Virus record (IMG/VR): IMGVR_UViG_3300045988_147264
Coordinates: 34,422 to 98,421 of that record
Origin: a virus
Reading direction: 5' to 3' (one strand)
Length of the DNA stretch: 64,000 nt
Positions 1,330-52,081 of the stretch are shown in pieces (the first letter of the stretch is position 1; the number at the start of each line of letters is the position of its first letter). The translations under genes and the position numbers were made by a program. The notes beneath the pieces are model-generated. The model worked only from the letters and a program-made list of their open reading frames with translations. It searched no databases and was not told the origin of the DNA.

Positions 1330-1330
1330 A

Positions 1331-1795: not shown

Positions 1796-1807
1796 ATTGA
1801 TAATTTT

Positions 1808-3781: not shown

Positions 3782-3832
3782 GTAGCTATTATATTAAGGG
3801 ACGAGCATAACCCGTCCCCAGTGTTAAACAAA

Positions 3833-4498: not shown

Positions 4499-4512
4499 AT
4501 ATATGTATATAA

Positions 4513-7470: not shown

Positions 7471-7476
7471 ATATTA

Positions 7477-11447: not shown

Positions 11448-11467
11448 TATAATATAATTAAGTCAAA

Positions 11468-11485
11468 GCCGGTATTTAAACCGGC
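11468..11485 (-). terminator. perfect hairpin GCCGGT-ATTTAA-ACCGGC in the intergenic gap between tail genes
   Basis: Palindrome seen directly. On the minus strand it is followed by TTTGACTT, a weak U-run. Confidence 0.25.
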
Positions 11486-11643
11486 ATTGACAATTTAACA
11501 TTGTTTTTATAGAAACCTGATGGTTTTGTTAACTATGAAAATGTTTATTTCTAAGAAAATAAGGCAATTCATGATTGCTAGAAAAACAACAACTCAGATT
11601 ATAGGTACCAATAAATCTGGCAATCTTCTTTTATTTTCATAAA

Positions 11644-14409: not shown

Positions 14410-14440
14410 GATGATTCGTTTTTAAAATAAATTAGAAGAT

Positions 14441-14462
14441 GAGAGGGGTTTCACCCCCTCTC
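14441..14462 (-). terminator. hairpin GAGAGGGG-tttcac-CCCCTCTC between the two BACON-repeat genes
   Basis: 8-bp GC stem seen directly, with a T-rich tract after it in the minus-strand sense. Confidence 0.35.
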
Positions 14463-14476
14463 ACCTTATGACAGCC

Positions 14477-26825: not shown

Positions 26826-28763
26826 TTATTCATATATTGATTCTCTCCATGGATTAAAGTACCCAACATTTCCCTCAAGCGACTTTATTTGATTCGGTGA
26901 AAACACCGCTGTTTCATTAAATCTGAAACCGGTTGTACCGGAAATCCCATTATAACCCAATGATTCAATATAGGCTCTATTTTCTGGAGTTATATTTTGC
27001 AGAATCCATGCAGGCATCTTTCCCATACGTGGATCTGTTATATCAATCGGATTTACGCCCGTGCTGACGATGTATGTTCTCCCACCGTTATACCAGTCAG
27101 GTTTATAGCCCGTGTGAACTCCTATACCAGGCTGCTCATAACGCTCTGCATATCCTCTTTGATTAGTTAAGTATATACCTTCGGGACCAGTACCTGTTCC
27201 TCTGACCTGTCCTCTATATAAATGATGCGACTTTTGTGGAAATATAGTGGCATCGGCATACGGAGCGCCGTGGTACTGTATATTAGGTGTTCCGCCAAAA
27301 TGACTAAGATAATCAGCGTAAGCCCTTGATTTCATTTGTAGGTAAGCTCTAGGATCTACACCCAATTTAGCGGCGTCTTCATACACATTTCTGTGATCTA
27401 GTCTTTGCTTTCTATATATATCAGAGTATTCATTGCGCAAGAACGTCGGAACCTCTTCGCCGGATTTAGACCATCCAGTAAAATATGGCATACCATCATT
27501 AAGGTATTCATCAGCTATCCGCGCTCTAAACCTCAGATCTTTATCAAGCCCCTTATATGGTTTAACGATCTGCCTGAACGCATCGGCATAGAGTTCTCGC
27601 GGAACCACATCAATATAATTCTTATCAGTAGTGTTTATATTATGTCCCTCATATACGTATTTGCCATTATCATATAATAAACCTATACCTTTCCTTTCGA
27701 GCTTATTACCGACAGAATGGCCGAACTCATGGGCAAGTGATGTCTTTGATGTCCAGGGAGCGTATCTTATGGAATTAGTCTTATCATTATACGCTTGTAT
27801 AGAACCGGATTCATCGCGTAACTTGAAAACTAATTCAGGTTTGGTCTGTATGGCTGCTCTATATTCCTTACTATTCTTACCGAAAGCCTTTTCTATATCA
27901 TCGAGAACATCATAAAAATGCTCTCCCCTTAATCTTCCAGATACTTTTGTTCCGGAAAAATTCAATGGATTCGTAAACTCAAGAAGCGAACTTAAAACAG
28001 GGTGTTGATACCTATCGACAAACAGATCTCCCCAGCTGTCACGCAAGCCTCCGGTGGTCTGATTTATACCAGCATCGAAGATTGTGTTAGCCATTCCAGC
28101 AAGCATGCCGGCAGGGCCAGCGATTCCACCTGCTATAACGGGAAATACATACTTAGTAGCAAACCTGTCTCTACCGAGGGTTATATAGTCATTAAACGCC
28201 TGCTTGTCACCATTTCTGATCGCATCCAATAATTGTTTATCAATGTATTTATCAGCTCCTTTATCGCGCCACCTTTTCTGTGTCCTGTTGAATATTCTCG
28301 ACTGTCTTCTGGTTCCGATAATGTCGTCGTTAAGACCATATCTATCCGCAAGATCATAAGCCTTGTTTTTTATCTGCTTTCTGCTCAGGCCACGAAGATT
28401 TATCGCGATCTTTTCTGATGGCGTTATCGAATCAAACATCTGTTCAATCTCCCCGCCATCGCCGTGCCACTTTGCAGAATTGCGCGCGAAATTAGCCTTC
28501 TTCACCATCGCGGTGCTATAATCATCCTTATTGGAAAGGACACGCGACGCAAACTCCTGCACGCCCATGCCGTGCCTTTTCGCGGCCGACGTGAACGTGC
28601 CTTTCTTTGACGGATCAATATGTATGCCACCACCGTTGCTATACTCGTTATACAATGCCCTCATCTCATCAAGACTCGTCACACCACTCCCGGTAAATAA
28701 CGAAATAAGTGAGGCCCTCTCGGACATGCTGAGAGAACCCCACTTGCCAATATTATTATCCAT
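26826..28763 (-). CDS. large protein with zincin-like HExxH motif (start moved to Met-37 to remove the overlap)
   Basis: SLAHEFGHSVGN matches the HExxH motif. ~645 aa, Gly/Tyr/Asn-rich C-terminal part. Confidence 0.45.
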   Translation of the reverse strand: MDNNIGKWGSLSMSERASLISLFTGSGVTSLDEMRALYNEYSNGGGIHIDPSKKGTFTSAAKRHGMGVQEFASRVLSNKDDYSTAMVKKANFARNSAKWHGDGGEIEQMFDSITPSEKIAINLRGLSRKQIKNKAYDLADRYGLNDDIIGTRRQSRIFNRTQKRWRDKGADKYIDKQLLDAIRNGDKQAFNDYITLGRDRFATKYVFPVIAGGIAGPAGMLAGMANTIFDAGINQTTGGLRDSWGDLFVDRYQHPVLSSLLEFTNPLNFSGTKVSGRLRGEHFYDVLDDIEKAFGKNSKEYRAAIQTKPELVFKLRDESGSIQAYNDKTNSIRYAPWTSKTSLAHEFGHSVGNKLERKGIGLLYDNGKYVYEGHNINTTDKNYIDVVPRELYADAFRQIVKPYKGLDKDLRFRARIADEYLNDGMPYFTGWSKSGEEVPTFLRNEYSDIYRKQRLDHRNVYEDAAKLGVDPRAYLQMKSRAYADYLSHFGGTPNIQYHGAPYADATIFPQKSHHLYRGQVRGTGTGPEGIYLTNQRGYAERYEQPGIGVHTGYKPDWYNGGRTYIVSTGVNPIDITDPRMGKMPAWILQNITPENRAYIESLGYNGISGTTGFRFNETAVFSPNQIKSLEGNVGYFNPWRESIYE

Positions 28764-28780
28764 TATGAAAAAAGTATTTC

Positions 28781-29737
28781 CTATCTCGCGGGAGACGTCA
28801 ATGGAACAACCCTCTTGTTGTCCTTGTTGAGATTCTCCCTGCCACGCACAACAGCCCCGCAATCGATGCACCTGTAAAGCTTATACCTACACGTGCTAGT
28901 GTTGTAATACCTGTCAGGTATCTCAACCAAGTGATCCTCCGAGGAACCACATACAGGGCACCTCACAACGCCGTCATCAAAGGTCGCTGCGACATTCGGA
29001 TGACTCTTCATCCACGGCCTCAGCTTAAGGTAAACCAACTCAAGAATCTTGACATCCTGCTGGTTGTACACAGCCATCTCCTCAAGAGCCTTTCCGTCAC
29101 CGTTGAGACACTTCTCCCACAAGGAGAAATCAGTGCCTATCTTGTGAGGAAAACCAAAGTAACCGGCCAGGGCGTCAAGCTTGTTGCTCTTGAAGCCAAA
29201 GTATCTCTTCGCGACATCAAGGGTGTCTATGATATAATACGGAGAAGGACACTTCAGATCGTTCAATATAAACCTCGTGTTCATCCACGGCACGTCAGCC
29301 CTCTTGGCGTTATGCGCCACAACGACATCTGCCTCGTCAATAAGCTTCCACAATGACCGCATGATCCTCGAGTCATCCTGCCTAAGCGCCTCCTCGGAAG
29401 TCAGCACGTCACACATCTCCTCGCCGCCGTAAAGCCACTTTGCGGACCAGCACAACATGAACCAATCTTGCCTGACATGATCCCACGCGATGTCCTGTTT
29501 CCATAAACCCCAGATATAACCCAACATAGGAGCTGTCTCGGTATCAAAGATCAACACCTTAGGCATCTTTTTGGGAGGACCAACAACAACATTGTAACCA
29601 CCGCTTGACCGCACAACATCCTTAGCCCCGCGTATGTCGTCAACACTGCATTTCAAATAACGGCTCAACTTGCCAGAACCCATACCCAAAAGGTACGGCT
29701 TGCGCCTCATGCGCTCAACTATCTCATCAAAAACCAT
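28781..29737 (-). CDS. DEDD-type 3'-5' exonuclease with C-terminal zinc ribbon
   Basis: VLIFDTETAPM is an Exo I motif. C-terminal CPVCG...CIDCG. Confidence 0.55.
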   Translation of the reverse strand: MVFDEIVERMRRKPYLLGMGSGKLSRYLKCSVDDIRGAKDVVRSSGGYNVVVGPPKKMPKVLIFDTETAPMLGYIWGLWKQDIAWDHVRQDWFMLCWSAKWLYGGEEMCDVLTSEEALRQDDSRIMRSLWKLIDEADVVVAHNAKRADVPWMNTRFILNDLKCPSPYYIIDTLDVAKRYFGFKSNKLDALAGYFGFPHKIGTDFSLWEKCLNGDGKALEEMAVYNQQDVKILELVYLKLRPWMKSHPNVAATFDDGVVRCPVCGSSEDHLVEIPDRYYNTSTCRYKLYRCIDCGAVVRGRENLNKDNKRVVPLTSPAR

Positions 29738-29740
29738 AAA

Positions 29741-30172
29741 CTAAAACTCAATCTCTGAAACAAACTTCGGACGACGACGCCCGTTGAGAATCGTACGGAT
29801 CTCAAACACACTCGACCCCTCTGGAATGACGTCATAACTCATATGAACCTTACGCCACGCGTTCCTTGCCATACGATGGTCAACCTTTATACCATCCGGC
29901 ATGAACACCCTTGGAGGCCTGTAAGTGGACAACGCGACCTTGTGCATCATGTTGTCCCTGATCACTATCGGCGTGATGAACGCCTGGACACACAGACCAT
30001 CGTCGTTCCTGATGAAAGTCGGAACCATGCGCTCAAACCTGACACCATGATTCGTCAAACAATTGGCCGTAAAAGCCTCGTCAGAGTTAAACCTCAGTTT
30101 CTTCGCGTAGGCATAAACCTTGCCTACAAAAACCCTGTTCGCAGAACTAACAACACCCATTTTAAAAAACAA
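29741..30172 (-). CDS. hypothetical protein (143 aa)
   Basis: First gene of the minus-strand block, 4-nt gap to the exonuclease. Confidence 0.45.
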   Translation of the reverse strand: MFFKMGVVSSANRVFVGKVYAYAKKLRFNSDEAFTANCLTNHGVRFERMVPTFIRNDDGLCVQAFITPIVIRDNMMHKVALSTYRPPRVFMPDGIKVDHRMARNAWRKVHMSYDVIPEGSSVFEIRTILNGRRRPKFVSEIEF

Positions 30173-30235
30173 GACTTAATGTAATTATACAATACCCTGA
30201 ATACCCAGGAAACCCAATGGGAGAACAGATCGCCT

Positions 30236-30274
30236 AACATTAACATTACCTAAACTTAACTTAACTTAACTTTA
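30236..30274. repeat. microsatellite-like tract (TAACAT)2 ... (TTAAC)3-4
   Basis: Seen directly: taacattaacattacctaaacttaacttaacttaacttta. Confidence 0.6.
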
Positions 30275-31140
30275 TTTAAGTAATTTCGTTAACTATTAAA
30301 CATAATTAGCCCCCCCCGCTACGACCTTGGACGCCTAAAATTAATAGAAACGCTTACAGCAATAGCGGGGCGAGTACTCGCGATCACTCGCCACCCCCGT
30401 TATCCTTGACCGGTAATTCAATCGTCTAGCATATAGCCTTACCGCAACCTAACCATACAGGAATTACAGGCCTGTCTCTCTTTTCCCCATCCGGCAAAAT
30501 GTCATTCCGGGAGAGATAGAATACCAGTATATTATGCATTTTAACCGCCTCAACAGCGGAGCACGCGCGCTTACTTTTCGCAACGCTTCATCAAGGACTG
30601 TTCTCGTTCGTAGGGGTGAAACTCGCCGTAGTTCCTACCCATTTTACATGTTGGCCATGCGGGACACTTGTTTGACGGTGGTTAAAATATTACTACACCA
30701 GCCAGTGACAAGATCGGTTGAAACCCCTGTCTTTAATCCACACCTCATAAGGCTCCGGAAAAGAGTACGCGAAATGACATTAACGCGTCGAACAATGCAA
30801 ATATACAAAATATTTATGAATCCACCAAATAATTATACAAATAATTATATACACCAAACTGAAATTGTTGGGCCATGACCCCAAAATATTATAAAAATTT
30901 TGAAAATTTTTGAAAAAAAATATTTTTATAGAGATAGTCGTTTGGGTGGGATACTCCCTAACAACCCCACCCCGTTGCTCCCGATTGGGGACCCACCCCC
31001 GGGGTGCTTTCGCTTCTCCCCAATCGCTCGCGACTTTACTCACTAGCAATCCCACAATGCTTTTTATCGGCGTGCAACAGTTGCATACCACGAGCGTCAG
31101 CGTTTCGTGCGCGGCTTGCTGGTATGGCTGAATTGCACCA

Positions 31141-31629
31141 TTGACTGCCAAATCATCACTATTTATGGCACGTTTCACATTGGGCAACGCTGGTGCCACT
31201 AAGACCAGCAACGATTTCTACGCAGGCGCAAACGCATTCGGTGCAAAAAGAGTCGAACTTCCTCGCATTCCAATCGATGTCGATGAGACGTCTGGGCTTG
31301 CTGTCTGGAAAATCGCCGGCAACTCCGACAAATCCAAGGGCGCGATAACACCAGATCGTTACTTCGCAATCCTGTCGGGCACCGTGGTCGAGAGAACCCG
31401 CACAACCCGCGACGGCGAAGAATTCATCACCAAAGAGATCGAACTGACCTGCGCGCAGGCTGGAACGGACGACACTCACGGCACCTTCAGGGTAAGCCTG
31501 CGTTGTTCCTCCGAATCTCAACTCGTTGTCGGCGAGAGCGTAGACACAACAAAAATTGAAGCGCTCCCGTTCCTCAATCCGCTCGACAACAAAGTGCGCA
31601 CCTACTACGACGCACCTGCTGCTCAGTAA
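31141..31629 (+). CDS. ORF with foreign (GC3-rich) codon usage inside the GC-rich island; alternative start at 31165 (MARFTLGNAG...)
   Basis: Strong third-position C/G bias (ttc aac acc ggc atc...) unlike the rest of the phage. Protein-like composition. Weak N-terminal resemblance (xTLGNxG) to levivirus coat proteins. The mirror ORF on the minus strand is an expected GC artefact. Confidence 0.35.
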   Translation: MTAKSSLFMARFTLGNAGATKTSNDFYAGANAFGAKRVELPRIPIDVDETSGLAVWKIAGNSDKSKGAITPDRYFAILSGTVVERTRTTRDGEEFITKEIELTCAQAGTDDTHGTFRVSLRCSSESQLVVGESVDTTKIEALPFLNPLDNKVRTYYDAPAAQ

Positions 31630-31780
31630 TACAAACAGCGCCAACACCCGCTCATAACGGCCGGGTCGCGGCGCTTCTCTTTATTGGCGTCAGGGCATCT
31701 TAGACCAACATCTTGGGTGACTTGACGCCTTAGATCATCTCGCGCTACGACATACAGCGCCGGTATATATTATGTATCCA

Positions 31781-31827
31781 ATAGTTTAAGCTATCCATAG
31801 CTTAAGCTAACCGATAGTTTATGCTAT
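31781..31827. repeat. three tandem iteron-like repeats ATAG(T/C)TTA(A/T)GCTA, with related inverted copies at 32002-32031
   Basis: ATAGTTTAAGCTAT / ATAGCTTAAGCTAA / ATAGTTTATGCTAT read directly. Nearby inverted repeat CCAGGAAGACC/GGTCCTCCTGG at 31832 and 31899. AT-rich flank. Confidence 0.5.
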
Positions 31828-32087
31828 CTCTCCAGGAAGACCAACATTTGCGGCCATAGCCTCGCTAAGCCGCACCGTTCATCAAGCCATTCACTTTGGT
31901 CCTCCTGGAAGATTAGTTTAACCACCGGTTGCCTATTGGGCCATTATGTGCCGCGCTGCTACTATAGTATGCATAACTATACCTTATATTATATAGGTAT
32001 ATCTTATGCTATCCATTATTTAAACTATTGGAGAGTTTAAGTTTACTATGGTTTATGTATTATACCGCGAGATGACTTTGAGTGAAC

Positions 32088-32208
32088 CACAAGTAAAACA
32101 ACGCCTCTTTAAAGGTAAATAGACTAACAAACAGCTGACTAGTAACTACGGTGAACGTCCATCTAATAGTCGAAATATCCTTTCTCTTGGCGGTTGTTTT
32201 ACTTGTGG
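32088..32208. repeat. 19-20 bp inverted repeat (CCACAAGTAAAACAACGCC / GGCGGTTGTTTTACTTGTGG) enclosing ~82 nt
   Basis: Seen directly. 19 of 20 positions complementary with one indel. Confidence 0.5.
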
Positions 32209-32394
32209 CATTACTATATTAGACCACACCTAACGCATTGATACTGAGTGTCTTTTCTATCGATGAGATTATTTAATCATTGATAGCTCTGATACTCCCC
32301 CCACAAGCCTTAATGTTTAGGTGTACTAGTATCCTAATACACTCAAAGTAAGACAGTCATTACTCATTTGTCGTGAGATACGTTTGTAGTGCTG

Positions 32395-32514
32395 GGCCAC
32401 ATTGCCTGATTTGGGGTAACACAAGACACATTTTTAACAGAATATACATAAGTTAAGTATTGCGCCAATTATCAAATGTCTTGTGTTTTTATGGTTCGAG
32501 TCCATGTGTGGCCG
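32395..32514 (+). tRNA. tRNA-like gene with ~47-nt insertion in the anticodon loop (anticodon undetermined)
   Basis: Perfect 7-bp acceptor GGCCACA/TGTGGCC, T arm TATGG-TTCGAGT-CCATG, 19-nt D region, anticodon stem ACAAG (32421-25)/CTTGT (32480-84) separated by 54 nt. Confidence 0.4.
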
Positions 32515-32806
32515 CTTATGCGCATGTAATCACATTTTAATTCGACTTTCCATCTGTTTTTGTAATTGAGGTTAGATATTAGTTGTTACTTGCTAAAAAC
32601 AAAAAAAATCCAATGTTCTAAGCATTGGTGATGGCGATAATATGTTTATTGTGAAATAAACATATTGGTAACACTGTGAGGTATTACAGTCATCATGATT
32701 ACATGTGCATATTGTATATTGTGAATCTTTTCTTTAGTTATGTATTAAGTTTTAGTGTTATTGTATCATGCCAAGACATGTCGTGAGATATAATCGAGGC
32801 TGGTTA

Positions 32807-32920
32807 TGGTCATGTAGCTCAGTATGGTTCAGAGCGGCGGCGATGTTAGATTAGTTATGTCAAAAATATTCTGATTGATACAAAGCCCGCAGGTCGCTGG
32901 TTCAAATCCAGCCATGGCCA
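32807..32920 (+). tRNA. tRNA-like gene with ~37-nt insertion in the anticodon loop (anticodon undetermined)
   Basis: Acceptor GGTCATG/CATGGCC (one G-U), D arm GCTC-11nt-GAGC, T arm GCTGG-TTCAAAT-CCAGC. Anticodon stem GCGG(C)/(C)CCGC separated by 44 nt. Confidence 0.45.
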
Positions 32921-33001
32921 CGATGTTGTTTAACATTTTGTAGTAAAACATACATAATTGTTATGATGTTTCGTCGTGAGATGAGGTGTCATAAGATCGA
33001 T

Positions 33002-33073
33002 TGTTGTGTGATGTAATGGTTAGCATAGGAGATTTTGGTTCTTCTCGTAGAGGTTCGAGTCCTCTCACAACAA
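33002..33073 (+). tRNA. tRNA-Gln(TTG)
   Basis: Perfect acceptor TGTTGTG/CACAACA, D stem ATGT/GCAT, anticodon arm GGAGA-TTTTGGT-TCTTC, T arm AGAGG-TTCGAGT-CCTCT, 72 nt. Confidence 0.7.
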
Positions 33074-33132
33074 CAAATCAATCGGGAGGTTGGTTTCCGC
33101 TCAAACAATAATCCATGGATAAAATTGAGCGG

Positions 33133-33204
33133 GAGGCGATAGTTCAGATGGTTAGAATACTCGAGACGCGTTGGGGGAAGTTGGTTCGAGTCCAACTCGC
33201 CTCA
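33133..33204 (+). tRNA. tRNA-like gene with aberrant (2 nt short, non-canonical) anticodon arm; possible pseudo-tRNA
   Basis: Perfect acceptor GAGGCGA/TCGCCTC, D arm GTTC-AGATGGTTA-GAAT, T arm GTTGG-TTCGAGT-CCAAC. Only 20 nt lie between position 26 and the T stem, and no clean 5-bp anticodon stem exists. Confidence 0.35.
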
Positions 33205-33209
33205 CAAAT

Positions 33210-33294
33210 GCCTTGGTGGTGAAATGGTAGACACGAGGGACTTAAAATCCCTTGGACAGAAATGTCCGTATGGGTTCGATTCCCATCTGGGGCA
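33210..33294 (+). tRNA. tRNA-Leu(TAA), long variable arm
   Basis: Anticodon arm AGGGA-CTTAAAA-TCCCT, variable stem-loop TGGACAGAAATGTCCGT, T arm ATGGG-TTCGATT-CCCAT, 85 nt. Confidence 0.7.
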
Positions 33295-33328
33295 CAAAAC
33301 AAATAACATAATGTTTTCTTCCAACATT

Positions 33329-33451
33329 TTAAGGTTAAGCAAGTCAAACCGGACGAGGTTAAAAGACTGGGCACGGAAATGAGTTATGGTCAATACTCAC
33401 ATTAATCAAAATTGTATCGGGCTGTCGAGCCCTGCCATTGCTTAACCTTAA
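33329..33451. repeat. 14-bp perfect inverted repeat (TTAAGGTTAAGCAA / TTGCTTAACCTTAA) flanking a 95-nt segment with an internal GGGCT-gtcg-AGCCC hairpin
   Basis: Seen directly between tRNA-Leu and ORF 33506. Confidence 0.5.
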
Positions 33452-33505
33452 TTTTTGTAGATTAGTACTTAAGAAGTTATAAATTAATATCGTTATATAA
33501 TTGCT

Positions 33506-33934
33506 ATGTGTTGGTTATCTAATAAATTAAAAATAAAGACCGCTAAAAAAGACATTGCTGTTTGGAAAGTTGTCCTTTTTGATAGAAGAAAAGGAATTTA
33601 TGTATCTCCTATTATTAATTATCGTTATATTTTAGGCGTAATTTATAAAGTGGAAATGATTTTTAAAGTAAATAATTATCCTTTAATAGGAGGGCATGAT
33701 GGGTTTCATTCCTTTTCTAATAGAGTATATTACCGTTACTTTAATAACAAAATTCACATATTCAAAAAGCGCATTTTTGCAGAGGATGAACATGTATTTA
33801 ACATTAGTGGTAATGACGGTTTTAACTTTGCAATAGCCAAAGGACGATTACCAAAAGGCACAAAATATGCAATAAATAAAAATGGTGAAATAATCTCATC
33901 TAGTATAGTTATAGATGATTTTATTGATTTGTAG
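33506..33934 (+). CDS. hypothetical protein (142 aa), AT-rich, embedded in the tRNA cluster
   Basis: Only sizeable ORF between the tRNAs. Lys/Ile/Asn-rich. Confidence 0.35.
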   Translation: MCWLSNKLKIKTAKKDIAVWKVVLFDRRKGIYVSPIINYRYILGVIYKVEMIFKVNNYPLIGGHDGFHSFSNRVYYRYFNNKIHIFKKRIFAEDEHVFNISGNDGFNFAIAKGRLPKGTKYAINKNGEIISSSIVIDDFIDL

Positions 33935-33949
33935 CCACAACTTAAAATC

Positions 33950-34022
33950 AGGGCGTTAGTTCAGTGGTTAGAGCACGAAGCTTATACCTTCGGAGTCAGG
34001 GGTTCAAATCCCTTACGCCCTA
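33950..34022 (+). tRNA. tRNA-Ile(TAT) (AUA-decoding)
   Basis: Perfect acceptor AGGGCGT/ACGCCCT, D arm GTTC-AGTGGTTA-GAGC, anticodon arm CGAAG-CTTATAC-CTTCG, T arm AGGGG-TTCAAAT-CCCTT. Confidence 0.7.
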
Positions 34023-34158
34023 CTTATAGATTTTCTTTAGTTCCTGGATCATGGCCAGGCTGTGTTCTTCTGAAAAGAAATTCAAAAAGCTTACAAAAAT
34101 CAAATGTAGGTGGGAACATGGTAGATTAAGTGGAAACGATCTGGAGAAAATCTATTTT

Positions 34159-34355
34159 GATCTCGTAGCTCAGTTGGCAGAGCACAATATTTCAGACAAT
34201 AGTCCAAACCACAAAAACTTAAAGATATAAGGTTCATCCCTTACACTTCTCAGAAATGATGGAGGATAGTTTAATGAAAACATTAAGTTTGCCTATATAA
34301 AAGCAGGTGTGGCAGGTTAATATTGAAGTCGCGGGTTCGATTCCCGTCGGGATCA
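34159..34355 (+). tRNA. tRNA-like gene interrupted by ~124-nt insertion in the anticodon loop; the 5' side loop reads TTTCAGA (candidate anticodon TCA)
   Basis: Acceptor GATCTCG/CGGGATC (one G-U), D arm GCTC-AGTTGGCA-GAGC, anticodon stem CAATA (34185-89)/TATTG (34321-25), T arm GCGGG-TTCGATT-CCCGT. Confidence 0.45.
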
Positions 34356-34619
34356 CACAATATATAAAAATAGTGGATAGGCCTGGAAGTAGCCATTCCT
34401 TAAAGAGTAATTGACCACCCGATCTATTAACGCTCCTTGGTAAAAGAGGAAAACGCAACTTAGTGGGATAAATGGAATAAGAAATGTAATGCACAAATCT
34501 GTATAACAGAGAGCATAAGATTCAATCTTTTACAGAGAAAACTGAAAAGGTAGTTGTATAACATCTTTGTAAGAGATAAATTTATTTTTGGTGTAATAAC
34601 ACGCTATTTTTATTATTTT

Positions 34620-34692
34620 CTTCATGTGGCGAAGTGGCTAACGCGGCGGTCTGCAAAACCGTTATTCGTGGGTTCGAGTCCCACCATGGAGT
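34620..34692 (+). tRNA. tRNA-Cys(GCA)
   Basis: Acceptor CTTCATG/CATGGAG (one G-U), anticodon arm GCGGT-CTGCAAA-ACCGT, T arm GTGGG-TTCGAGT-CCCAC. Confidence 0.65.
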
Positions 34693-34720
34693 CTAAGTTA
34701 AACAAATAAAGACAAACATC

Positions 34721-34990
34721 ATGGACGTAAAAACTTTTAACGAATTCTTTAACGAGCTCGCAAATGAGCAAAAGCGCAACATTGATAATGTTGTTCATTA
34801 CAGATATTCAAACAAGCCGGCAGTTGTAGCTACTGTAGATATGCCGAAAAATGAAAGAGTCCCAAGCTACAGGGTTGTTCGTTTCCTCGAATCCCAAGGA
34901 ATCAAATTTGATTACCTTGCGTACGACAGAGAAAAATGCCGTTACTATGCTATGCTTAATAAAAATAGCTTTGAGAGATGCGAACAGTAG
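34721..34990 (+). CDS. hypothetical protein (89 aa), first gene of the plus-strand module
   Basis: ORF immediately downstream of tRNA-Cys. Confidence 0.45.
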   Translation: MDVKTFNEFFNELANEQKRNIDNVVHYRYSNKPAVVATVDMPKNERVPSYRVVRFLESQGIKFDYLAYDREKCRYYAMLNKNSFERCEQ

Positions 34991-35616
34991 ACAATGCGGT
35001 AGACAATTTTGAACTGATTCGTGGATTCATGCGTTTTGAGTCTACGGATCAGTTTTATTTTCTACAGATTCTTCAACGGAAAAAGGATGGTCCTGGACCA
35101 AACGGCATTGTATATGGCACAAACAATAAAGCCAGAGCAATCAAGAGTTACTGCATAACGTCTGTCGAGATGTTGGATAGAATCTCTATTGAAGTCAAAC
35201 ATTTATGTAAATACTTCAATGCCAGGGCTTATTTTTATCCTGCGAGAAGATCTTTCAAAAAGGTTGCCATGAGGAACATGGTGTTGCTTGCAAACAACAT
35301 TTCTGAAGGTAATTACAACCACGCAAAGACTAATTACTGGTCGGCATGTGGTACCACTGAGATCGAGAAGTTATATTTAGTTGATGTGGATAATGACAAG
35401 TGCGACAAGGGTCGAGTGATTGACATAAACGTGGAAATTGAAACGAATGTAAGATCCGGCGCTTCTGTCGGCCAACGCATAAAACTTTGTGTTCCCACAA
35501 AGAATGGCATTCATTTCATATGTTCGCCGTTTGACGTGGCTTCATTTAAGGAGAAGTATCCAGACATTGATGTACACAAAAGCAATCCTACAATATTATA
35601 TTGTTTAAAAGATTAA
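34978..35616 (+). CDS. hypothetical protein (212 aa)
   Basis: ORF with short overlap, consistent orientation. Confidence 0.5.
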   Translation: MRTVDNAVDNFELIRGFMRFESTDQFYFLQILQRKKDGPGPNGIVYGTNNKARAIKSYCITSVEMLDRISIEVKHLCKYFNARAYFYPARRSFKKVAMRNMVLLANNISEGNYNHAKTNYWSACGTTEIEKLYLVDVDNDKCDKGRVIDINVEIETNVRSGASVGQRIKLCVPTKNGIHFICSPFDVASFKEKYPDIDVHKSNPTILYCLKD

Positions 35617-35620
35617 CATT

Positions 35621-35824
35621 ATGGACATTAAATTTTCAAAGAAATCCATTAAGGACAATGGTTTCATTGTTCTTTATTGGGTACCAAACAACGAGATTGG
35701 GTTTAATCTATTTAAATCTCGGGAAGTCGCGCGAAAATTTGCCCTTGACAAGGTATCGGAAGGTTGCTCTGTAACTACATTCACTAAAGACTGTGAACTA
35801 CAGCCTAAAAGAAGGATTCTGTAA
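35621..35824 (+). CDS. hypothetical protein (67 aa)
   Basis: Compact ORF. Confidence 0.35.
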   Translation: MDIKFSKKSIKDNGFIVLYWVPNNEIGFNLFKSREVARKFALDKVSEGCSVTTFTKDCELQPKRRIL

Positions 35825-35827
35825 ATT

Positions 35828-36028
35828 ATGAAACCATACAGTAATGGCAAAGAATTCTTGCAAGACTCTATGAAACACGGTCCATACATTAAGGATGAAG
35901 TTCATGATTGTTGGAGATTTCCGACGAAAATCGAGAACAACGGTGTATGGCTTGACGATTATAGGTTTTGCAACTATATCGCCTTGTCATCATATTGTTG
36001 GCAAGACGGTAAACGTTGTTGTCGATAA
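35828..36028 (+). CDS. hypothetical Cys/Trp-rich small protein (66 aa)
   Basis: Compact ORF. Confidence 0.35.
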   Translation: MKPYSNGKEFLQDSMKHGPYIKDEVHDCWRFPTKIENNGVWLDDYRFCNYIALSSYCWQDGKRCCR

Positions 36029-38126: not shown

Positions 38127-38924
38127 TTGCACAAGTCACAAATCGCTGTGTTTGTGGCTTATGTTTTAACTAAAAAAGACATGCAGTATTATTTAAAAAT
38201 CGATACGTGCTTCAAGCGCGTACAAGACAAAGATAATCCTTTGTTTAACTGTATTATTCCTGACGAATTCACTCGGGATGAATTCGCTGTTCTACAGGAT
38301 TGCAGATGGTTGGCTACTGAAAAAGTTGACGGTACAAACATGTCATATCATTTCAGATATGAAGCCAATCCGACGGGTAATGAACCACCGCTCGTGGATA
38401 TTCTTGAGATTCATGGTAAAACTCCGGACTCTAAGATACCTATTCCTTTAATCGAGAAGATGCAGTCTCTTGTTTCCAAGGAAGACTTTCATAGGTTGTT
38501 CCTTAGAGAAGATAAGCCTAACTCGCTTGTCGATGTTTGGATTTTTGGTGAAGGTTATGGCAAAAAGATTCAAAAGTTCGGCAATGATTACATCAGTAAT
38601 GGCGTGAATTTCATTGTCTTTGACATCAAAATCGGCAATATTTGGCTCACAAGAGGATCCGTAGAGGAGATTTGTCGGGAGTTACGCCTTGACATTGTGC
38701 CTATCATTGATTATATGACCTTAAATCAAGGTATAAGACTTGTTGAAAAGGGTTTTAAGTCAAGGGTTGCAGAGAATGAAAACCTTAATGCCGAGGGACT
38801 TGTGCTGTCAGCGCCATGTATGATGCTTGACAGGCTCGGCAACAGGATTGTCACCAAGATTAAGACATGTGACTTCAATCAGTTAAAAGCAAAACTCAAA
38901 AGTAATGGAACAGTTCTCGGTTAA
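38127..38924 (+). CDS. Rnl2-like ATP-dependent RNA ligase (nucleotidyltransferase superfamily)
   Basis: Motif I KVDGTN (KxDG), motif IV EGLVLS, motif V IVTKIKT, size ~265 aa. Alternative start at Met 38181. Confidence 0.55.
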   Translation: MHKSQIAVFVAYVLTKKDMQYYLKIDTCFKRVQDKDNPLFNCIIPDEFTRDEFAVLQDCRWLATEKVDGTNMSYHFRYEANPTGNEPPLVDILEIHGKTPDSKIPIPLIEKMQSLVSKEDFHRLFLREDKPNSLVDVWIFGEGYGKKIQKFGNDYISNGVNFIVFDIKIGNIWLTRGSVEEICRELRLDIVPIIDYMTLNQGIRLVEKGFKSRVAENENLNAEGLVLSAPCMMLDRLGNRIVTKIKTCDFNQLKAKLKSNGTVLG

Positions 38925-48698: not shown

Positions 48699-49566
48699 TT
48701 CGGCTAAACGAATTGCGTGTTATATTGAATGCATAAGCGAATTTGAGGCGTTTGATCGCGATAAAAATATTGTTCTTAAAAGAGCGGTCAGAGCGTGTTT
48801 CTCTTCGTTACGAAAGCGGGAAGATATAACTCGCATAAAGATTTATATGTACGCATATGAGCCGAAACTTTCGATCGAAGATAATGTTTTCTATTATAAT
48901 AAACATAAAGGTATAAAGAGATATTATCCAGTTACCGATTTATCAATTACGATGATGAGGAAGATCTTAGATCTTGCAAAGAGTATTGTTGACTTTAAGT
49001 CCTCAATTTCTATTGAGCATATCATCGACGAAAACGGCAACGATAGGTTTCAATATTGCACAGATCTTCTGTTTCCAAGCGATACAAATACCATTCAAAA
49101 ACTGTTCGTGTGTACCGTTGTAAGATGGTTCTATGAACAACAGAACCGTTATATCGCATTAAAAGCTTATGAATTGTATAACACCGAGAAGTATCATCGC
49201 TTTGGTTTTTTCAATTTATACTGTTTCGTAAAGGAACAATGTTACGATAATGTGAATGATTTTGGACACGATCTTCTTGATGGTAAAAGTCTTGTTCGTA
49301 GAACATTTTTCGTTCCAGAAAAACTCAAATCGTTATACGAAATGAGTTCCTCGTTACGCAATGGTAAAAGTATCACATTACTTTGGATGGGGTGTGGCTA
49401 TTCTGGAATACCAGTAGAAAACACTTCAATGCAAGTTACAGAAATTTACTGCAAAGGCGGTAAACAAGGATTTGATCTTCAAGAGAGGCTTGAAAGCAAT
49501 ATTGATTTCATTATTTCAAAAATAAAAGGAAATGAGACATTTGACTGTGAGAACGAGGAACAGTAA
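48679..49566 (+). CDS. hypothetical protein (295 aa)
   Basis: ORF. Confidence 0.45.
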   Translation: MSYMDYDSAKRIACYIECISEFEAFDRDKNIVLKRAVRACFSSLRKREDITRIKIYMYAYEPKLSIEDNVFYYNKHKGIKRYYPVTDLSITMMRKILDLAKSIVDFKSSISIEHIIDENGNDRFQYCTDLLFPSDTNTIQKLFVCTVVRWFYEQQNRYIALKAYELYNTEKYHRFGFFNLYCFVKEQCYDNVNDFGHDLLDGKSLVRRTFFVPEKLKSLYEMSSSLRNGKSITLLWMGCGYSGIPVENTSMQVTEIYCKGGKQGFDLQERLESNIDFIISKIKGNETFDCENEEQ

Positions 49567-50332
49567 ATGTTATGCGTTGCGTGACATTGAAGTTCCCCAA
49601 AAAACGATCCTCAGGCTTGGTAGCGTCACGCCTACTGCGGAAATAACACGTAAGACTGACATCATTGAGATAAATCCAGCGGAAGCATGCGCCATATCGT
49701 CAGATAAGCGCGCCACAAGAAGGATTCTTCTCGAAGCAGGTGTGTCGATTGCAGACGAATGCGTGATTCCAGAAGATGTTCGTGACAATCACGACAACAT
49801 TATTGCCATAATCCTTAAGTATATGCAAGATAATGATTGTAACATCATTGCAAAGCGTTATAATTCCTCAAAAGGGAAGGGGTTACTGCTGCTGGACAGT
49901 CCTGATGCAGTTGAGTCTTTTGTGAATTTCGCTAAAATTGAGAATTGGGTGCTTGAGCGCTATTACACGTATTCCCGTGAATACCGTATTCATGTAACCA
50001 AGGATGGTTGTTTTCTCGCAGATAGAAAGATGCTTATTAACGGAGCCGATGAAAGATGGCATCGTCACGAGACAAATTCTGTCTGGATTAACGAAAATAA
50101 CGAATTATTTAACAAACCGATTAACTGGGAAGATATAGTTGCCGATTGTGTAAAGGCAATGCATGCAATCGGTTTGGATATCTGTTGCTTTGATGTCAAG
50201 GTGCAGAATGACAAACATGAGAATCCTAAATGGATAATCATGGAGTCAAATAGCGCACCTGGACTCAATGACTCTTCTATTGAATTATATAGAGAACAAA
50301 TTAAAAAAATTATCAATGAAAGAACGGTATAA
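49532..50332 (+). CDS. RimK-like ATP-grasp ligase
   Basis: ATP-grasp motifs IIAKRYNSSKGKGLLLL, EYRIHV, IMESNSAPGL (compare RimK EVNSSPGL). Confidence 0.55.
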   Translation: MRHLTVRTRNSKCYALRDIEVPQKTILRLGSVTPTAEITRKTDIIEINPAEACAISSDKRATRRILLEAGVSIADECVIPEDVRDNHDNIIAIILKYMQDNDCNIIAKRYNSSKGKGLLLLDSPDAVESFVNFAKIENWVLERYYTYSREYRIHVTKDGCFLADRKMLINGADERWHRHETNSVWINENNELFNKPINWEDIVADCVKAMHAIGLDICCFDVKVQNDKHENPKWIIMESNSAPGLNDSSIELYREQIKKIINERTV

Positions 50333-52078: not shown

Positions 52079-52081
52079 CAA

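What the first reader, a model, noticed from the sequence alone, without database searches (positions are those of the whole stretch)
32395..34355. Three tRNA genes in the cluster are interrupted by short insertions inside the anticodon arm
For the loci 32395..32514, 32807..32920 and 34159..34355 the acceptor stems (7 bp), D arms and T arms (TTCGAGT, TTCAAAT, TTCGATT loops) are fully canonical. The two halves of the 5-bp anticodon stem, however, are separated by 54, 44 and 131 nt instead of 7. At ~40-125 nt these insertions are far too short for group I introns, the only intron type known in bacterial and phage tRNAs. They are not protein-coding. A fourth gene (33133..33204) has a 2-nt-short, non-canonical anticodon arm. 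This points to tRNA pseudogenes, tRNA-like decoys, or a novel class of small tRNA introns needing a dedicated splicing and ligation route.
Basis: seen in the sequence. Interest (0 to 1): 0.75.

Follow-up and report, generated by a model that had tools for sequence, protein, structure and literature searches.

The report
Broken and remodelled phage tRNA genes
In the tRNA cluster of this crAss-like gut phage, one interrupted gene is a tRNA-Lys still carrying the dead stump of a self-splicing group I intron, and the others are conserved tRNA-shaped RNAs whose anticodon arm has been replaced by a long hairpin, so no new kind of small tRNA intron is needed to explain them.

Summary
There are three tRNA-shaped genes with 44-131 nt between the halves of the anticodon stem, and a fourth with an abnormal anticodon loop.

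They are two different things.

Locus 3 (34159-34355) is tRNA-Lys(UUU).
- A relative (L024) carries the same gene with a 505-nt group I intron between nt 34 and 35. That intron has P1 with a U.G pair, a GAAA-capped P2, P3, P7, P8 and omega-G. It is homologous to the intron that splits the primase gene of IAS virus and cr116_1.
- The window keeps only the last 124 nt (J8/7-P7'-P9). It cannot self-splice and is most likely a recent pseudogene.
- ARAGORN's "UCA suppressor with a 37/38 intron" is an artefact.

Loci 1, 2 and the fourth gene are not pre-tRNAs.
- Their tRNA frame and lengthened anticodon helix are kept by compensatory changes across relatives.
- No register gives a conserved U33 or anticodon.
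- No bulge-helix-bulge motif or splicing endonuclease was found.
- Loci 1 and 2 each sit behind a conserved promoter-like motif.
- Locus 2's insert and the fourth gene are hypervariable islands in otherwise 94-100% identical DNA.

I read these as tRNA-derived non-coding RNAs. Their function is unknown; tRNA mimicry in host conflict is the leading guess.

The parts
32370..32379 (+). Promoter-like motif GTCGTGAGAT, 15 nt upstream of locus 1
   Evidence: Exact copies lie before locus 1, locus 2 and tRNA-Gln in the window and in all relatives. The degenerate form CGYGAGAYR gives 9 hits against 2.45 expected, clustered at the divergent switch. Promoter function is inferred.
32395..32514 (+). Locus 1: tRNA-shaped RNA gene with a 7-bp acceptor stem, weak D arm, canonical T arm and a 10-bp helix in place of the anticodon stem
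   Evidence: Ten variants (9 in alignment A3, plus L127). Pairing is 97.9%, with 4 pairs changed on both sides; the slid controls pair only 29-51%. Model R1 scores 110-134 bits in clade members only.
32419..32428 (+). 5' strand of the 10-bp helix of locus 1 (ACACAAGACA)
   Evidence: Pairs with 32477-32486. All cells are paired in the 9 variants of A3, and two pairs changed on both sides (AU/GU/UA/UG and CG/UA).
32429..32476 (+). Insert of locus 1 (48 nt). Its length and sequence drift among relatives except for the invariant AAGTATTG at 32455-32462
   Evidence: Alignment A3. Single-sequence folds show no shared strong structure. No similarity to the group I intron family.
32477..32486 (+). 3' strand of the 10-bp helix of locus 1 (TGTCTTGTGT)
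   Evidence: L127 has one C.A mismatch here.
32780..32789 (+). Promoter-like motif GTCGTGAGAT, 18 nt upstream of locus 2
   Evidence: In L015 and L025 this motif is fused directly to tRNA-Gln, so locus 2 has been deleted there.
32808..32920 (+). Locus 2: tRNA-shaped RNA gene whose anticodon loop is replaced by a long irregular hairpin
   Evidence: Rfam tRNA 50.2 bits with a 46-nt insertion. ARAGORN intron mode at default threshold. The minimum-free-energy fold is a cloverleaf with an extended arm. All substitutions in helix 4, inside the insert, among 4 close variants keep pairing.
32842..32885 (+). Insert of locus 2 (44 nt): a hypervariable cassette
   Evidence: Only 29.5% identical to L127, while the flanks are 94-100% identical and tRNA-Gln is 100% identical. 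The L127 version folds into a different hairpin of similar architecture. L115 and L116 carry a short form with a 9-nt loop.
33133..33205 (+). Fourth tRNA-shaped gene with a non-canonical anticodon loop (GACGCGU, no U33)
   Evidence: Rfam tRNA 45.8 bits and the ARAGORN drawing. It is 68.9% identical to the L127 allele. Changes in the acceptor and D stems are compensatory, and the L127 allele has an 8-nt loop.
34159..34192 (+). Locus 3, 5' exon of tRNA-Lys(UUU), ending with U32 U33 U34
   Evidence: Homologous to the 5' exon of L024 and L025, which ARAGORN calls tRNA-Lys(ttt) with an intron at 34/35. Joining the exons in silico gives a clean tRNA-Lys(UUU).
34193..34316 (+). 124-nt 5'-truncated remnant of a group I intron: J8/7, the 3' strand of P7 (AATAGTCC), an expanded P9, and the terminal G
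   Evidence: It aligns only to positions 468-491 and 507-579 of the 579-nt L024 gene. Positions 27-467 (P1-P8) are absent here and everywhere else in the window. The terminal G is A in L127.
34317..34355 (+). Locus 3, 3' exon of tRNA-Lys (U35 U36 A37 A38, the rest of the tRNA, and discriminator A)
38127..38924 (+). RNA ligase gene (context only; not shown to act on these RNAs)
   Evidence: Pfam PF09414 at 6.3e-13 and PHROG 548. It is syntenic in all relatives. In the phage collection, homologs occur only in cr116_1, IAS virus, Lak phages, tRNA-rich Streptomyces phages and a few others.

Best explanation
The three interrupted loci have two different origins.

(A) Locus 3 is a tRNA-Lys(UUU) gene that once carried a self-splicing group I intron between U34 and U35.
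- A deletion removed the 5' four-fifths of the intron: the internal guide (P1), P2, P3, P4-P6, the 5' strand of P7, and P8.
- What is left is 124 nt (J8/7, the 3' strand of P7, P9, and the terminal G).
- The transcript therefore cannot fold a catalytic core and cannot excise the insert. The gene is a recently inactivated relic.
- Shown: homology, the intron anatomy in relatives, and the absence of the core in the window. Inferred: loss of splicing and of tRNA function.

(B) Locus 1, locus 2 and the fourth gene are tRNA-derived non-coding RNA genes, not precursor tRNAs.
- Loci 1 and 2 each have their own upstream GTCGTGAGAT motif, probably an early promoter.
- Each keeps the acceptor/T-arm half and the elbow of a tRNA. 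I infer from this that they are trimmed by RNase P and RNase Z and receive CCA like tRNAs.
- In loci 1 and 2 the anticodon stem-loop has been replaced by a longer rod-like hairpin; the fourth gene has a degenerate anticodon arm. None can decode.
- Selection keeps the fold. The interior of locus 2 and the whole fourth gene turn over very fast between near-identical phages.
- The most likely role is a tRNA mimic that engages a host or phage tRNA-binding factor, for example a tRNA-directed defence enzyme. This is a weak inference. A tRNA-scaffolded small RNA is the close second.
For: (A) Locus 3
- L024 carries gatctcg...CACTT | 505 nt | TTAAtgtat..., and ARAGORN calls it tRNA-Lys(ttt) with the intron at 34/35.
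- The intron has P1 (exon CACUU paired to GAGUG, with U.G at the splice site), a 7-bp P2 capped by GAAA, P3 AUCUCC/GGAGAU, P7 GACUAU/AUAGUC and a terminal G, as read from the sequence.
- L001 has compensated P7 (GACUUU/AAAGUC) and P3 (UCCUCC/GGAGGG). IAS virus has a compensated P9 (CUAC/GUAG against CCAC/GUGG) and a fully different but still paired P2.
- The core is 73-91% identical to the sequence that splits the DNA primase gene of IAS virus and cr116_1. That is a gene type reported to carry group I introns in crAss-like phages (PMC7886860).
- The window retains only gene positions 1-26, 468-491 and 507-579, and has no second copy of the core.
- In the 99% identical L127 allele, the terminal G is A and ARAGORN's 'UCA' reads UUA.

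(B) Loci 1, 2 and the fourth gene
- Covariation in locus 1.
- Architecture of locus 2.
- The 'U33' position covaries with a pairing partner.
- Orthologs with near-identical acceptor stems get different ARAGORN anticodons.
- Against L127, the locus 2 insert is 29.5% identical and the fourth gene 68.9%, while the flanks are 94-100%.
- Promoter-like motif.
- No Pfam hit to a splicing endonuclease, RtcB or a polynucleotide kinase in 40 window ORFs of the replication (+) arm and the region around the strand switch; the late-gene arm (1-16129) was not scanned with Pfam.
- No known Rfam family apart from tRNA.
Against: - There are no expression or processing data of any kind.
- The clade is small: 10 variants of locus 1, 5 (plus 2 short forms) of locus 2, and 6 of locus 3. 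Covariation counts are therefore modest. Among the four closest locus 2 variants, no pair changed on both sides.
- Some copies look damaged. In L112 the T loops of loci 1 and 2 have lost C56. L127 has a C.A mismatch in the 10-bp helix. Locus 2 is deleted in L015 and L025. The genes are therefore dispensable and may be decaying in places.
- The exons of locus 3 are intact. Its anticodon stem shows compensated differences between lineages with short inserts (CAAUA/UAUUG against CAACA/UGUUG). Three lineages independently kept the same 3' piece of the intron. That could hint at some retained use.
- Many early ORFs have no annotation, and an RNA ligase is encoded nearby. A protein-dependent cut-and-join route cannot be excluded.
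- Rfam's group I model detects none of the full-length family members. The group I assignment therefore rests on my reading of the helices and on homology to primase-splitting sequences.
Confidence: 0.55

Rival explanations
1. All the interrupted genes are simply decaying tRNA pseudogenes, dead remnants of intron invasions or other insertions, with no present function. The apparent conservation reflects short evolutionary distance.
For: - Locus 3 is clearly a truncated-intron allele.
- L026 has a degenerate 3' junction.
- In L112 both T loops have lost C56.
- Locus 2 is deleted in L015 and L025.
- The cluster is visibly eroded by recombination, for example the tRNA-Gln/tRNA-Cys fusion in L112 and the Leu/Lys hybrid in L001.
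Against: - The tRNA frame of locus 1 is about 86% identical between lineages whose surrounding DNA is 67% identical.
- Its non-tRNA 10-bp helix changed on both sides at two pairs after the insert was acquired, and every cell stays paired.
- The fourth gene differs from its L127 allele at 31% of positions, yet keeps its acceptor and D stems by compensatory changes, inside DNA that is 98-100% identical.
- The promoter-like motifs are 100% conserved.
Confidence: 0.22
2. Loci 1 and 2 (and perhaps 3) are precursor tRNAs carrying a new kind of short intron. An unidentified phage or host endonuclease cuts it out, and the phage RNA ligase at 38127-38924 rejoins the halves.
For: - The exons are conserved while the insert interior drifts, which is intron-like.
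- An RNA ligase gene is syntenic in every relative.
- That ligase is otherwise rare among crAss-like phages.
- Many neighbouring ORFs have no known function.
Against: - No excision register yields a 5-bp stem with a 7-nt loop carrying U33 in locus 1. The 10 bp are continuous, followed by C on the 5' side and preceded by CAAU on the 3' side.
- In locus 2 the would-be U33 is U, C or G and covaries with its partner.
- The implied anticodon changes (Asn, Arg, Tyr) among orthologs with nearly identical acceptor stems.
- There is no bulge-helix-bulge motif in the folds.
- There is no Pfam hit to a tRNA splicing endonuclease, RtcB or a polynucleotide kinase among the ORFs scanned.
- The ligase also occurs in relatives and phages that lack interrupted tRNAs, for example IAS virus.
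Confidence: 0.08
3. The truncated intron in locus 3 is still removed. The missing catalytic core would be supplied in trans, by a full-length intron of a co-infecting relative or by another structured RNA of the cluster. The gene would then still make tRNA-Lys.
For: - Three lineages (the window with L127, L025 and L026) independently kept the same J8/7-P7'-P9 segment, with intact exons in the window and L025.
- Two conserved structured RNAs of unknown function lie nearby. One of them is directly upstream of tRNA-Lys in L024 and L025.
Against: - No sequence in the window resembles P1-P8 of the family.
- The deletion also removed the internal guide sequence.
- The terminal G is mutated to A in L127.
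- The junction is degenerate in L026.
- The deletion end points share microhomology with the exon end (ACTT, TTT; my reading). That explains the repeated outcome without invoking selection.
Confidence: 0.03

Closest known systems
[quoted passage not shown]
   Same: In the relative L024 the intron follows U34 of the loop (CUU/a...g/UUAA). This is the same loop position (site 3, 'Ug') as the classical tRNA-Leu intron. It has U at -1, a terminal G, and P1-P9 helices.
   Different: - The host gene is a phage tRNA-Lys(UUU). I found no report of such a case in the papers searched.
- Rfam's group I model does not detect this family.
- In the window itself only the 3' 124 nt survive, so it is a relic and not a working intron.
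Group I introns of crAss-like phages in core protein genes (primase, MCP, PolB; Yutin et al. 2021, PMC7886860)
   Same: The core, S element and P9 of the tRNA-Lys intron are 73-91% identical to the sequence that splits the primase gene of IAS virus and cr116_1. The 5' splice context is also shared (ACUU|AA, guide GAGU(G), P2 with GAAA).
   Different: It is inserted in a tRNA gene instead of a protein gene, it has no endonuclease ORF, and it is truncated in the window.
Bacteriophage T4 RNA C and RNA D (small stable RNAs encoded in the T4 tRNA region)
   Same: These are small non-coding RNAs encoded among phage tRNA genes, with no known function (PMC3014915, PMC9697503). From my own memory and not checked here: they are processed together with the tRNAs and have partly tRNA-like folds.
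   Different: There is no sequence relationship. The RNAs here have a full cloverleaf frame with only the anticodon arm rebuilt. Loci 1 and 2 have their own promoter-like motifs. T4's RNAs are classed as late (PMC9697503), whereas the position here suggests early expression.
Archaeal and eukaryal protein-spliced tRNA introns (bulge-helix-bulge, position 37/38)
   Same: A short non-coding insert in the anticodon arm extends the anticodon helix, and ARAGORN's intron mode reports them.
   Different: There is no bulge-helix-bulge motif, no conserved 37/38 position and no conserved anticodon. No endonuclease or RtcB gene was detected. The host is a Bacteroidota-type phage system.
Phage tRNAs with altered anticodon loops that escape host anticodon nucleases (van den Berg et al. 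2023, PMC10264068)
   Same: They are phage-encoded and tRNA-shaped, and variation is concentrated in the anticodon arm. Here the anticodon-arm cassette of locus 2 and the whole fourth gene are hypervariable between near-identical genomes.
   Different: Those are still decoding tRNAs with 7-nt loops. Here the loop is replaced or malformed, so the RNAs cannot substitute for cleaved host tRNAs. A decoy role would be a different mechanism and is untested.
Engineered 'tRNA scaffolds' for expressing recombinant RNAs
   Same: The architecture is the same: a foreign hairpin replaces the anticodon loop of a tRNA body, which gives the RNA stability and tRNA-type processing.
   Different: Those are artificial. 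No natural phage counterpart is known to me, and no cargo function was identified here. No antisense target of 13 nt or more exists in the window.

Membership tests
Group I intron (insert of locus 3, 34193-34316) | P1: an internal guide sequence pairing with the 5' exon end, with a U.G pair at the splice site | tested here: not met
   It is present in L024 (CACUU|AAAAUAA GAGUG) and in IAS virus, but that segment is deleted in the window.
Group I intron (insert of locus 3, 34193-34316) | Catalytic core: P3, P4-P6, both strands of P7, and P8 | tested here: not met
   The window aligns only to positions 468-491 and 507-579 of the L024 gene. Only the 3' strand of P7 remains. In L024, L001, IAS virus and cr116_1 the core is present with compensated P3 and P7.
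Group I intron (insert of locus 3, 34193-34316) | A terminal G (omega-G) before the 3' exon, preceded by P9 | tested here: met
   ...GTGTGGCAGG|TTAATATTG in the window. The P9 helix CCACA/TGTGG is conserved and compensated in IAS virus. The terminal G is A in L127.
Group I intron (insert of locus 3, 34193-34316) | A match to the curated covariance model (Rfam Intron_gpI) | tested here: not met
   There is no hit in the window, in L024, or in the primase-splitting sequences of IAS virus and cr116_1. The model is blind to this whole family, so the miss says little.
Group I intron (insert of locus 3, 34193-34316) | Self-splicing activity | not testable with these tools
   Needs in vitro transcription with GTP and Mg2+.
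Canonical decoding tRNA (loci 1, 2, 3 and the fourth gene as encoded) | A 7-bp acceptor stem and a T arm with a T-psi-C-type loop | tested here: met
   ARAGORN drawings and covariation for locus 1.
Canonical decoding tRNA (loci 1, 2, 3 and the fourth gene as encoded) | A 5-bp anticodon stem closing a 7-nt loop with U33 and a conserved anticodon | tested here: not met
   - Locus 1: a 10-bp helix followed by 48 nt.
- Locus 2: a 44-nt hairpin, with 'U33' covarying.
- Locus 3: 124 nt inserted between nt 34 and 35.
- Fourth gene: loop GACGCGU.

Canonical decoding tRNA (loci 1, 2, 3 and the fourth gene as encoded) | A score above the Rfam tRNA gathering threshold | tested here: inconclusive
   Locus 2 scores 50.2 bits and the fourth gene 45.8 bits, both above the threshold of 29. 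Loci 1 and 3 are not reported.
Protein-spliced (archaeal/eukaryal-type) tRNA intron | A bulge-helix-bulge motif at the exon-intron junctions | tested here: not met
   The predicted folds show a continuous helix (locus 1) or symmetric internal loops (locus 2), with no 3-4-3 motif.
Protein-spliced (archaeal/eukaryal-type) tRNA intron | A splicing endonuclease and a matching ligase available | tested here: inconclusive
   No Pfam hit to tRNA-intron endonuclease, RtcB or a polynucleotide kinase in the ORFs scanned. An ATP-dependent RNA ligase (PF09414) is present. Many ORFs are unannotated, the late-gene arm was not scanned with Pfam, and the host genome is unknown.
Protein-spliced (archaeal/eukaryal-type) tRNA intron | Excision leaves a functional anticodon loop that is the same in orthologs | tested here: not met
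   ARAGORN's best registers give Asn, Arg and Tyr for locus 2 orthologs and Leu, Val and Lys for locus 1 orthologs.
tRNA pseudogene | An inactivating lesion together with relaxed constraint on the rest of the gene | tested here: inconclusive
   - Locus 3: the lesion is shown. Relaxed constraint is seen at the junction in L127 and L026, but the exons are intact.
- Locus 1 and the fourth gene: constraint on the stems persists. This argues against a plain pseudogene.

The most novel reading that the evidence does not exclude
Loci 1, 2 and the fourth gene would be a family of phage tRNA mimics transcribed from dedicated early promoters. They keep the acceptor/T-arm half of a tRNA but carry a long anticodon arm that diversifies rapidly. 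Two roles are possible. They could be decoys or inhibitors for a host tRNA-directed defence or tRNA-processing enzyme. Or they could be natural tRNA scaffolds that display a small effector RNA. [quoted passage not shown]
Probability: 0.3. Interest if true: 0.75.

Novelty: new variant of a known kind. Interest (0 to 1): 0.45.

Why it matters
- It removes a tempting false lead. Nothing here requires a new class of small bacterial or phage tRNA introns or a dedicated splicing route.
- Group I introns of crAss-like phages also invade tRNA genes (tRNA-Lys, and tRNA-Leu in L001). They can then decay in place, leaving stumps that intron-permissive tRNA finders misread. ARAGORN called this one an opal suppressor, which matters for predicting genetic-code recoding in gut phages.
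- It points to a small set of tRNA-shaped non-coding RNA genes that are conserved in fold yet partly hypervariable in sequence. They lie at the start of the early region of an abundant gut phage group, and loci 1 and 2 have promoter-like motifs. If they are tRNA mimics engaged in host conflict, they would extend the emerging picture of phage tRNAs as counter-defence tools. They are easy to test by small-RNA sequencing.

Tried and rejected
- **Opal-suppressor reading of locus 3** (ARAGORN UCA, intron at 37/38). Rejected: homologs place the splice site at 34/35 with anticodon UUU, and the 'UCA' reads UUA in the 99% identical L127. The window's late genes also have long uninterrupted ORFs under the standard code.
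- **Known RNA families or small ribozymes in the inserts.** An Rfam E-value search of 31000-36000 found only tRNA.
- **Rfam group I model** on L001, L024, IAS virus and cr116_1: no hit. I therefore read the helices by hand and relied on homology.
- **Loci 1 and 2 as remnants of the same intron family.** There is no similarity beyond 9-10-mers.
- **Antisense targets of the inserts in the window.** Only chance-level 11-12-mers were found. The invariant AAGTATTG is not enriched. Its complementarity to the window's tRNA-Lys exon end is not kept in relatives (my reading), so it is probably chance.
- **Wider distribution.**
  - Covariance model R1 found locus 1 only in the close clade among 93 sources.
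  - DNA pattern scans of IMG/VR found two contigs.
  - More distant homologs of the neighbouring ORF sit in other contexts without these genes.
  - The IAS virus tRNA cluster has no interrupted tRNAs.
- **The small ORF inside the cluster (33506-33934) as a clue.** It has no Pfam or PHROG hit and no relatives, and it is absent from L127.
- **Fourth gene as a degraded tRNA-Tyr like that of IAS virus.** The alignment was not convincing.
- **Sigma-70 promoter and terminator scan.** At chance level.
- **Literature searches** for phage tRNA introns or crAss tRNA-like RNAs gave no direct precedent.

Full report
**Setting**

The window is a crAss-like phage.
- Its portal protein is 65-68% identical to those of cr128_1, IAS virus and Kehishuvirus/PhiCrAss001-type phages.
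- Portal and large terminase lie on the minus strand. An exonuclease-type DNA polymerase subunit ends at 29737, and replication and nucleotide-metabolism genes run on the plus strand from about 34.7 kb.
- The strand switch and the GC-skew minimum are at about 30-32 kb.
- The finding lies in the non-coding stretch that opens the plus-strand arm.

**Checking the observation**

- Default ARAGORN finds five ordinary-looking tRNA genes here: Gln UUG, an odd 'Ala CGC', Leu UAA, Ile UAU and Cys GCA.
- In intron mode at the default threshold it adds 32808-32921 and 34159-34356. Only at a relaxed threshold does it add 32395-32515.
- Twenty shuffles of the window gave no call at the default threshold and about three per shuffle at the relaxed one. 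Loci 2 and 3 therefore stand on their own, while locus 1 needs other support.
- Rfam's tRNA model hits locus 2 at 50.2 bits with a 46-nt insertion. It hits the fourth gene (33133-33204) at 45.8 bits with a malformed loop.
- In locus 1 the 'anticodon stem' is actually a continuous 10-bp helix enclosing 48 nt.

**Relatives**

The phage collection holds no close relative at the DNA level. I used the neighbouring 212-aa ORF (34978-35616) to fetch relatives from IMG/VR, JGI, ENA and Logan. The informative ones are L001, L015, L019, L024, L025, L026, L112, L115, L116 and L127. More distant homologs of the ORF lie in other contexts without these genes.

**Locus 3 is a tRNA-Lys with the stump of a group I intron**

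L024 carries the same exons around a 505-nt insert...AGAGCAATACACTT | AAAATAAGAGTG... ...GTGTGGTAGG | TTAATGTATGGGTC.... ARAGORN calls it tRNA-Lys(ttt) with the intron between 34 and 35, and does the same for L025 with a 107-nt insert. Joining the window's exons at the homologous point gives a clean tRNA-Lys(UUU).

The L024 insert reads as a group I intron:
- The exon end CACUU pairs with GAGUG 7 nt into the intron, and the splice-site U sits opposite G (P1).
- A 7-bp hairpin capped by GAAA follows (P2).
- AUCUCC pairs with GGAGAU (P3).
- GACUAU pairs with AUAGUC (P7), with a hairpin domain between them (P8).
- CCACA pairs with UGUGG (P9).
- The last base is G.

These pairings are my reading of the sequence, but they are compensated in relatives.
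- L001 has GACUUU/AAAGUC and UCCUCC/GGAGGG.
- IAS virus has CUAC/GUAG in P9 and an entirely different but still paired P2.

The core is 73-91% identical to unannotated DNA that splits the DNA primase gene of IAS virus and cr116_1. It also hits Lak phages. Yutin et al. report group I introns in crAss-like primase genes (PMC7886860). Rfam's group I model detects none of these sequences. That is a limit of the model and does not count against the assignment.

The window aligns only to positions 1-26, 468-491 and 507-579 of the 579-nt L024 gene, and no other part of the window resembles the missing core. What remains at 34193-34316 is J8/7, the 3' strand of P7 (AATAGTCC), a P9 with a lineage-specific expansion shared with L026, and the terminal G. 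Without P1-P8 it cannot fold an active site.

In L127 the allele is 99% identical, yet the terminal G is A, and the triplet ARAGORN read as UCA is UUA. Neither the splice site nor a suppressor anticodon is being maintained.

I conclude that locus 3 is a recently inactivated tRNA-Lys gene. One oddity is recorded as unexplained. Three lineages (the window with L127, L025 and L026) kept the same 3' piece. The exons of the window and L025 are intact, with compensated anticodon stems. Microhomology between the exon end (ACTT, TTT) and the P8/J8-7 region offers a mechanical reason for the repeated outcome.

**Locus 1**

- Nine variants were aligned. A cloverleaf with a 10-bp helix in place of the anticodon stem is 97.9% paired.
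- Four pairs changed on both sides, two of them in the 10-bp helix. None of 500 shuffles reached the observed pairing percentage or covariation score (1 and 6 of 500 for the two counting measures), and slid controls reach only 29-51%.
- Between the window and L019 the frame is about 86% identical, while the surrounding DNA is 67%.
- The 48-70-nt interior has many indels, no shared strong fold and one invariant octamer, AAGUAUUG.
- The helix is continuous and is followed by an invariant C. No register leaves a 7-nt loop with U33.
- ARAGORN's anticodon calls for orthologs disagree: Leu, Val, Lys.
- A covariance model found nothing outside the clade.

**Locus 2**

- The fold is a cloverleaf whose anticodon stem continues through a 2x2 loop, a 3-bp helix (UGU/ACA), a 6-bp helix and a small hairpin.
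- Among four close variants, every substitution in helix 4, inside the insert, keeps pairing, but none is double-sided.
- L115 and L116 carry what I take to be the ortholog. It has the same promoter-like motif, a similar acceptor stem, and the same GA / NGU...ACN / UUAG layout. Its arm has a 7-bp stem, a 3-bp helix and a 9-nt loop. There the 3-bp helix is CGU/ACG and GGU/ACC.
- The base that would be U33 of an Asn-like loop therefore covaries with a partner. It is constrained as part of a helix and not as U33.
- L127 is decisive about tempo. Flanks, promoter-like motif and tRNA-Gln are 94-100% identical to the window, but the insert is 29.5% identical. It folds into a different hairpin of similar length and layout.
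- ARAGORN reads Asn in the window, Arg in L001 and Tyr in L127 for genes with nearly identical acceptor stems and similar T arms.
- The gene is missing in L015 and L025, where its promoter-like motif is fused to tRNA-Gln.

**The fourth gene**

It behaves like locus 2. It is 68.9% identical to the L127 allele inside 98-100% identical DNA. The acceptor and D stems changed by compensation. Both alleles have abnormal loops: GACGCGU in the window and an 8-nt loop in L127.

**Is there a splicing route?**

- Pfam and PHROG scans of the plus-arm ORFs and of several ORFs around and to the left of the strand switch found an RNA ligase (PF09414, 38127-38924) and a metallophosphoesterase (59208-59813).
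- They found no tRNA splicing endonuclease, RtcB or polynucleotide kinase. The late-gene arm (1-16129) was not scanned with Pfam.
- No bulge-helix-bulge motif appears in the folds.
- In the phage collection the ligase occurs only in cr116_1, IAS virus, Lak phages, tRNA-rich Streptomyces phages and a few others. IAS virus has 18 normal tRNAs and no interrupted one.
- The ligase therefore fits tRNA repair as well as anything else. Many ORFs remain unannotated, so a protein route is unlikely but not excluded.

**Expression signals**

- GTCGTGAGAT lies 15-19 nt upstream of locus 1, locus 2 and tRNA-Gln in every relative.
- The degenerate form occurs 9 times against 2.45 expected. There is a cluster at 31736 (minus strand) and at 32066, 32372, 32782 and 32975 (plus strand), right at the divergent switch.
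- I infer an early promoter, possibly for the phage's own polymerase. This was not tested.

**Interpretation**

Locus 3 is a group I intron relic in a dead tRNA-Lys gene.

Loci 1, 2 and the fourth gene are tRNA-derived non-coding RNAs. The top half of the tRNA is preserved, which should give RNase P and RNase Z processing and CCA addition (inferred). The anticodon arm is rebuilt, which excludes decoding.

Conservation of fold combined with cassette-like turnover of locus 2 and the fourth gene looks like a locus under conflict or frequent allele exchange. That makes a tRNA-mimic role toward a host tRNA-directed factor my leading, weakly held, functional guess. The background for this is PMC10264068. 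A tRNA-scaffolded small RNA is the alternative, although I found no target in the window.

The nearest precedent for unexplained small RNAs in a phage tRNA cluster is T4 RNA C and RNA D (PMC3014915, PMC9697503).

**Verdict**

The 'novel small intron' reading is not supported. What remains is one ordinary-in-kind but instructive intron relic, and a small, clade-restricted family of remodelled tRNA-like genes whose function is open.

Noticed in passing
window 32370-32379, 32780-32789, 32973-32982 (+); also 32066-32074 (+) and 31736-31744 (-): The motif GTCGTGAGAT (degenerate form CGYGAGAYR) clusters at the divergent strand switch, 15-19 nt before locus 1, locus 2 and tRNA-Gln. It gives 9 hits against 2.45 expected and is identical in all relatives. 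It is a candidate early promoter, and it does not resemble sigma-70 or the usual Bacteroides promoter elements.
   Followed up: partly
window 32087-32208 (+): 'Element A' is a structured non-coding RNA of about 120 nt, just downstream of a copy of the promoter-like motif. It has a 19-bp closing stem and inner helices, and three pairs are compensated among five relatives. It has no Rfam match.
   Followed up: partly
window 33331-33449 (+); L024 3880-3990 (-); L025 2360-2476: 'Element B' is a conserved structured RNA with a 13-bp closing stem and three inner hairpins. In L024 and L025 it lies directly 5' of tRNA-Lys. In the window it is separated from tRNA-Lys by an inserted ORF and tRNA-Ile. 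Function unknown.
   Followed up: partly
L001 2308-3010: L001 has a hybrid gene. The 5' half of tRNA-Leu(UAA), 100% identical to window 33209-33246, runs into a group I intron of about 630 nt that ends at the 3' exon of tRNA-Lys. This suggests that tRNA-Leu also carried this intron and that recombination between two intron copies, or a misassembly, removed everything in between.
   Followed up: partly
L112 4676-4775; L015 2942-3044; L025 2264-2347: Recombination between repeated elements is eroding the cluster. In L112, tRNA-Gln is fused to tRNA-Cys at the shared GGTTCGAGTCC T arm. In L015 and L025, locus 2 is deleted between two copies of the promoter-like motif. Many assemblies of relatives also break inside the cluster.
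   Followed up: partly
L115 930-1018; L116 4312-4401: These are tRNA-like genes with a 7-bp anticodon stem, a GA/A internal loop, a covarying 3-bp helix and a 9-nt loop UUAGUUCAU. There is a U.U mismatch at acceptor pair 6:67 in both, and CCA is encoded in L116. They are probably the short-form ortholog of locus 2.
   Followed up: partly
window 38127-38924 (+): In the phage collection, the RNA ligase (PF09414) has homologs only in cr116_1, IAS virus, Lak megaphages, tRNA-rich Streptomyces phages and a few other records. The first three also carry the same group I intron family. This could be shared ancestry or a functional link.
   Followed up: no
window 33506-33934 (+): A 142-aa ORF sits in the middle of the tRNA cluster. 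It has no Pfam or PHROG match and no relative in IMG/VR, and it is absent from the otherwise 92-99% identical L127. It looks like a recent insertion.
   Followed up: partly
window 49532-55672 (+): A run of genes encodes an ATP-grasp-like protein, peptidase C26/GATase, a phiEco32-like COOH-NH2 ligase, a class-II glutamine amidotransferase and an amidoligase. This is a peptide or metabolite ligase cassette unrelated to the finding.
   Followed up: no
window 26826-28871 (-): A 681-aa protein next to the DNA polymerase exonuclease subunit has a C-terminal ADP-ribosyltransferase domain of the 'polyvalent protein' type (PF18760, 1.6e-7).
   Followed up: no
window 32610-32628 (-): A terminator-like hairpin followed by eight T lies on the minus strand, between loci 1 and 2. 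It hints at some leftward transcription through this spacer.
   Followed up: no
window 29738-31650: A stretch of about 1.9 kb at the strand switch has higher GC content (0.47-0.49) and only short, unannotated, overlapping ORFs on both strands. It coincides with the cumulative GC-skew minimum, so it is a possible replication origin or regulatory region.
   Followed up: no
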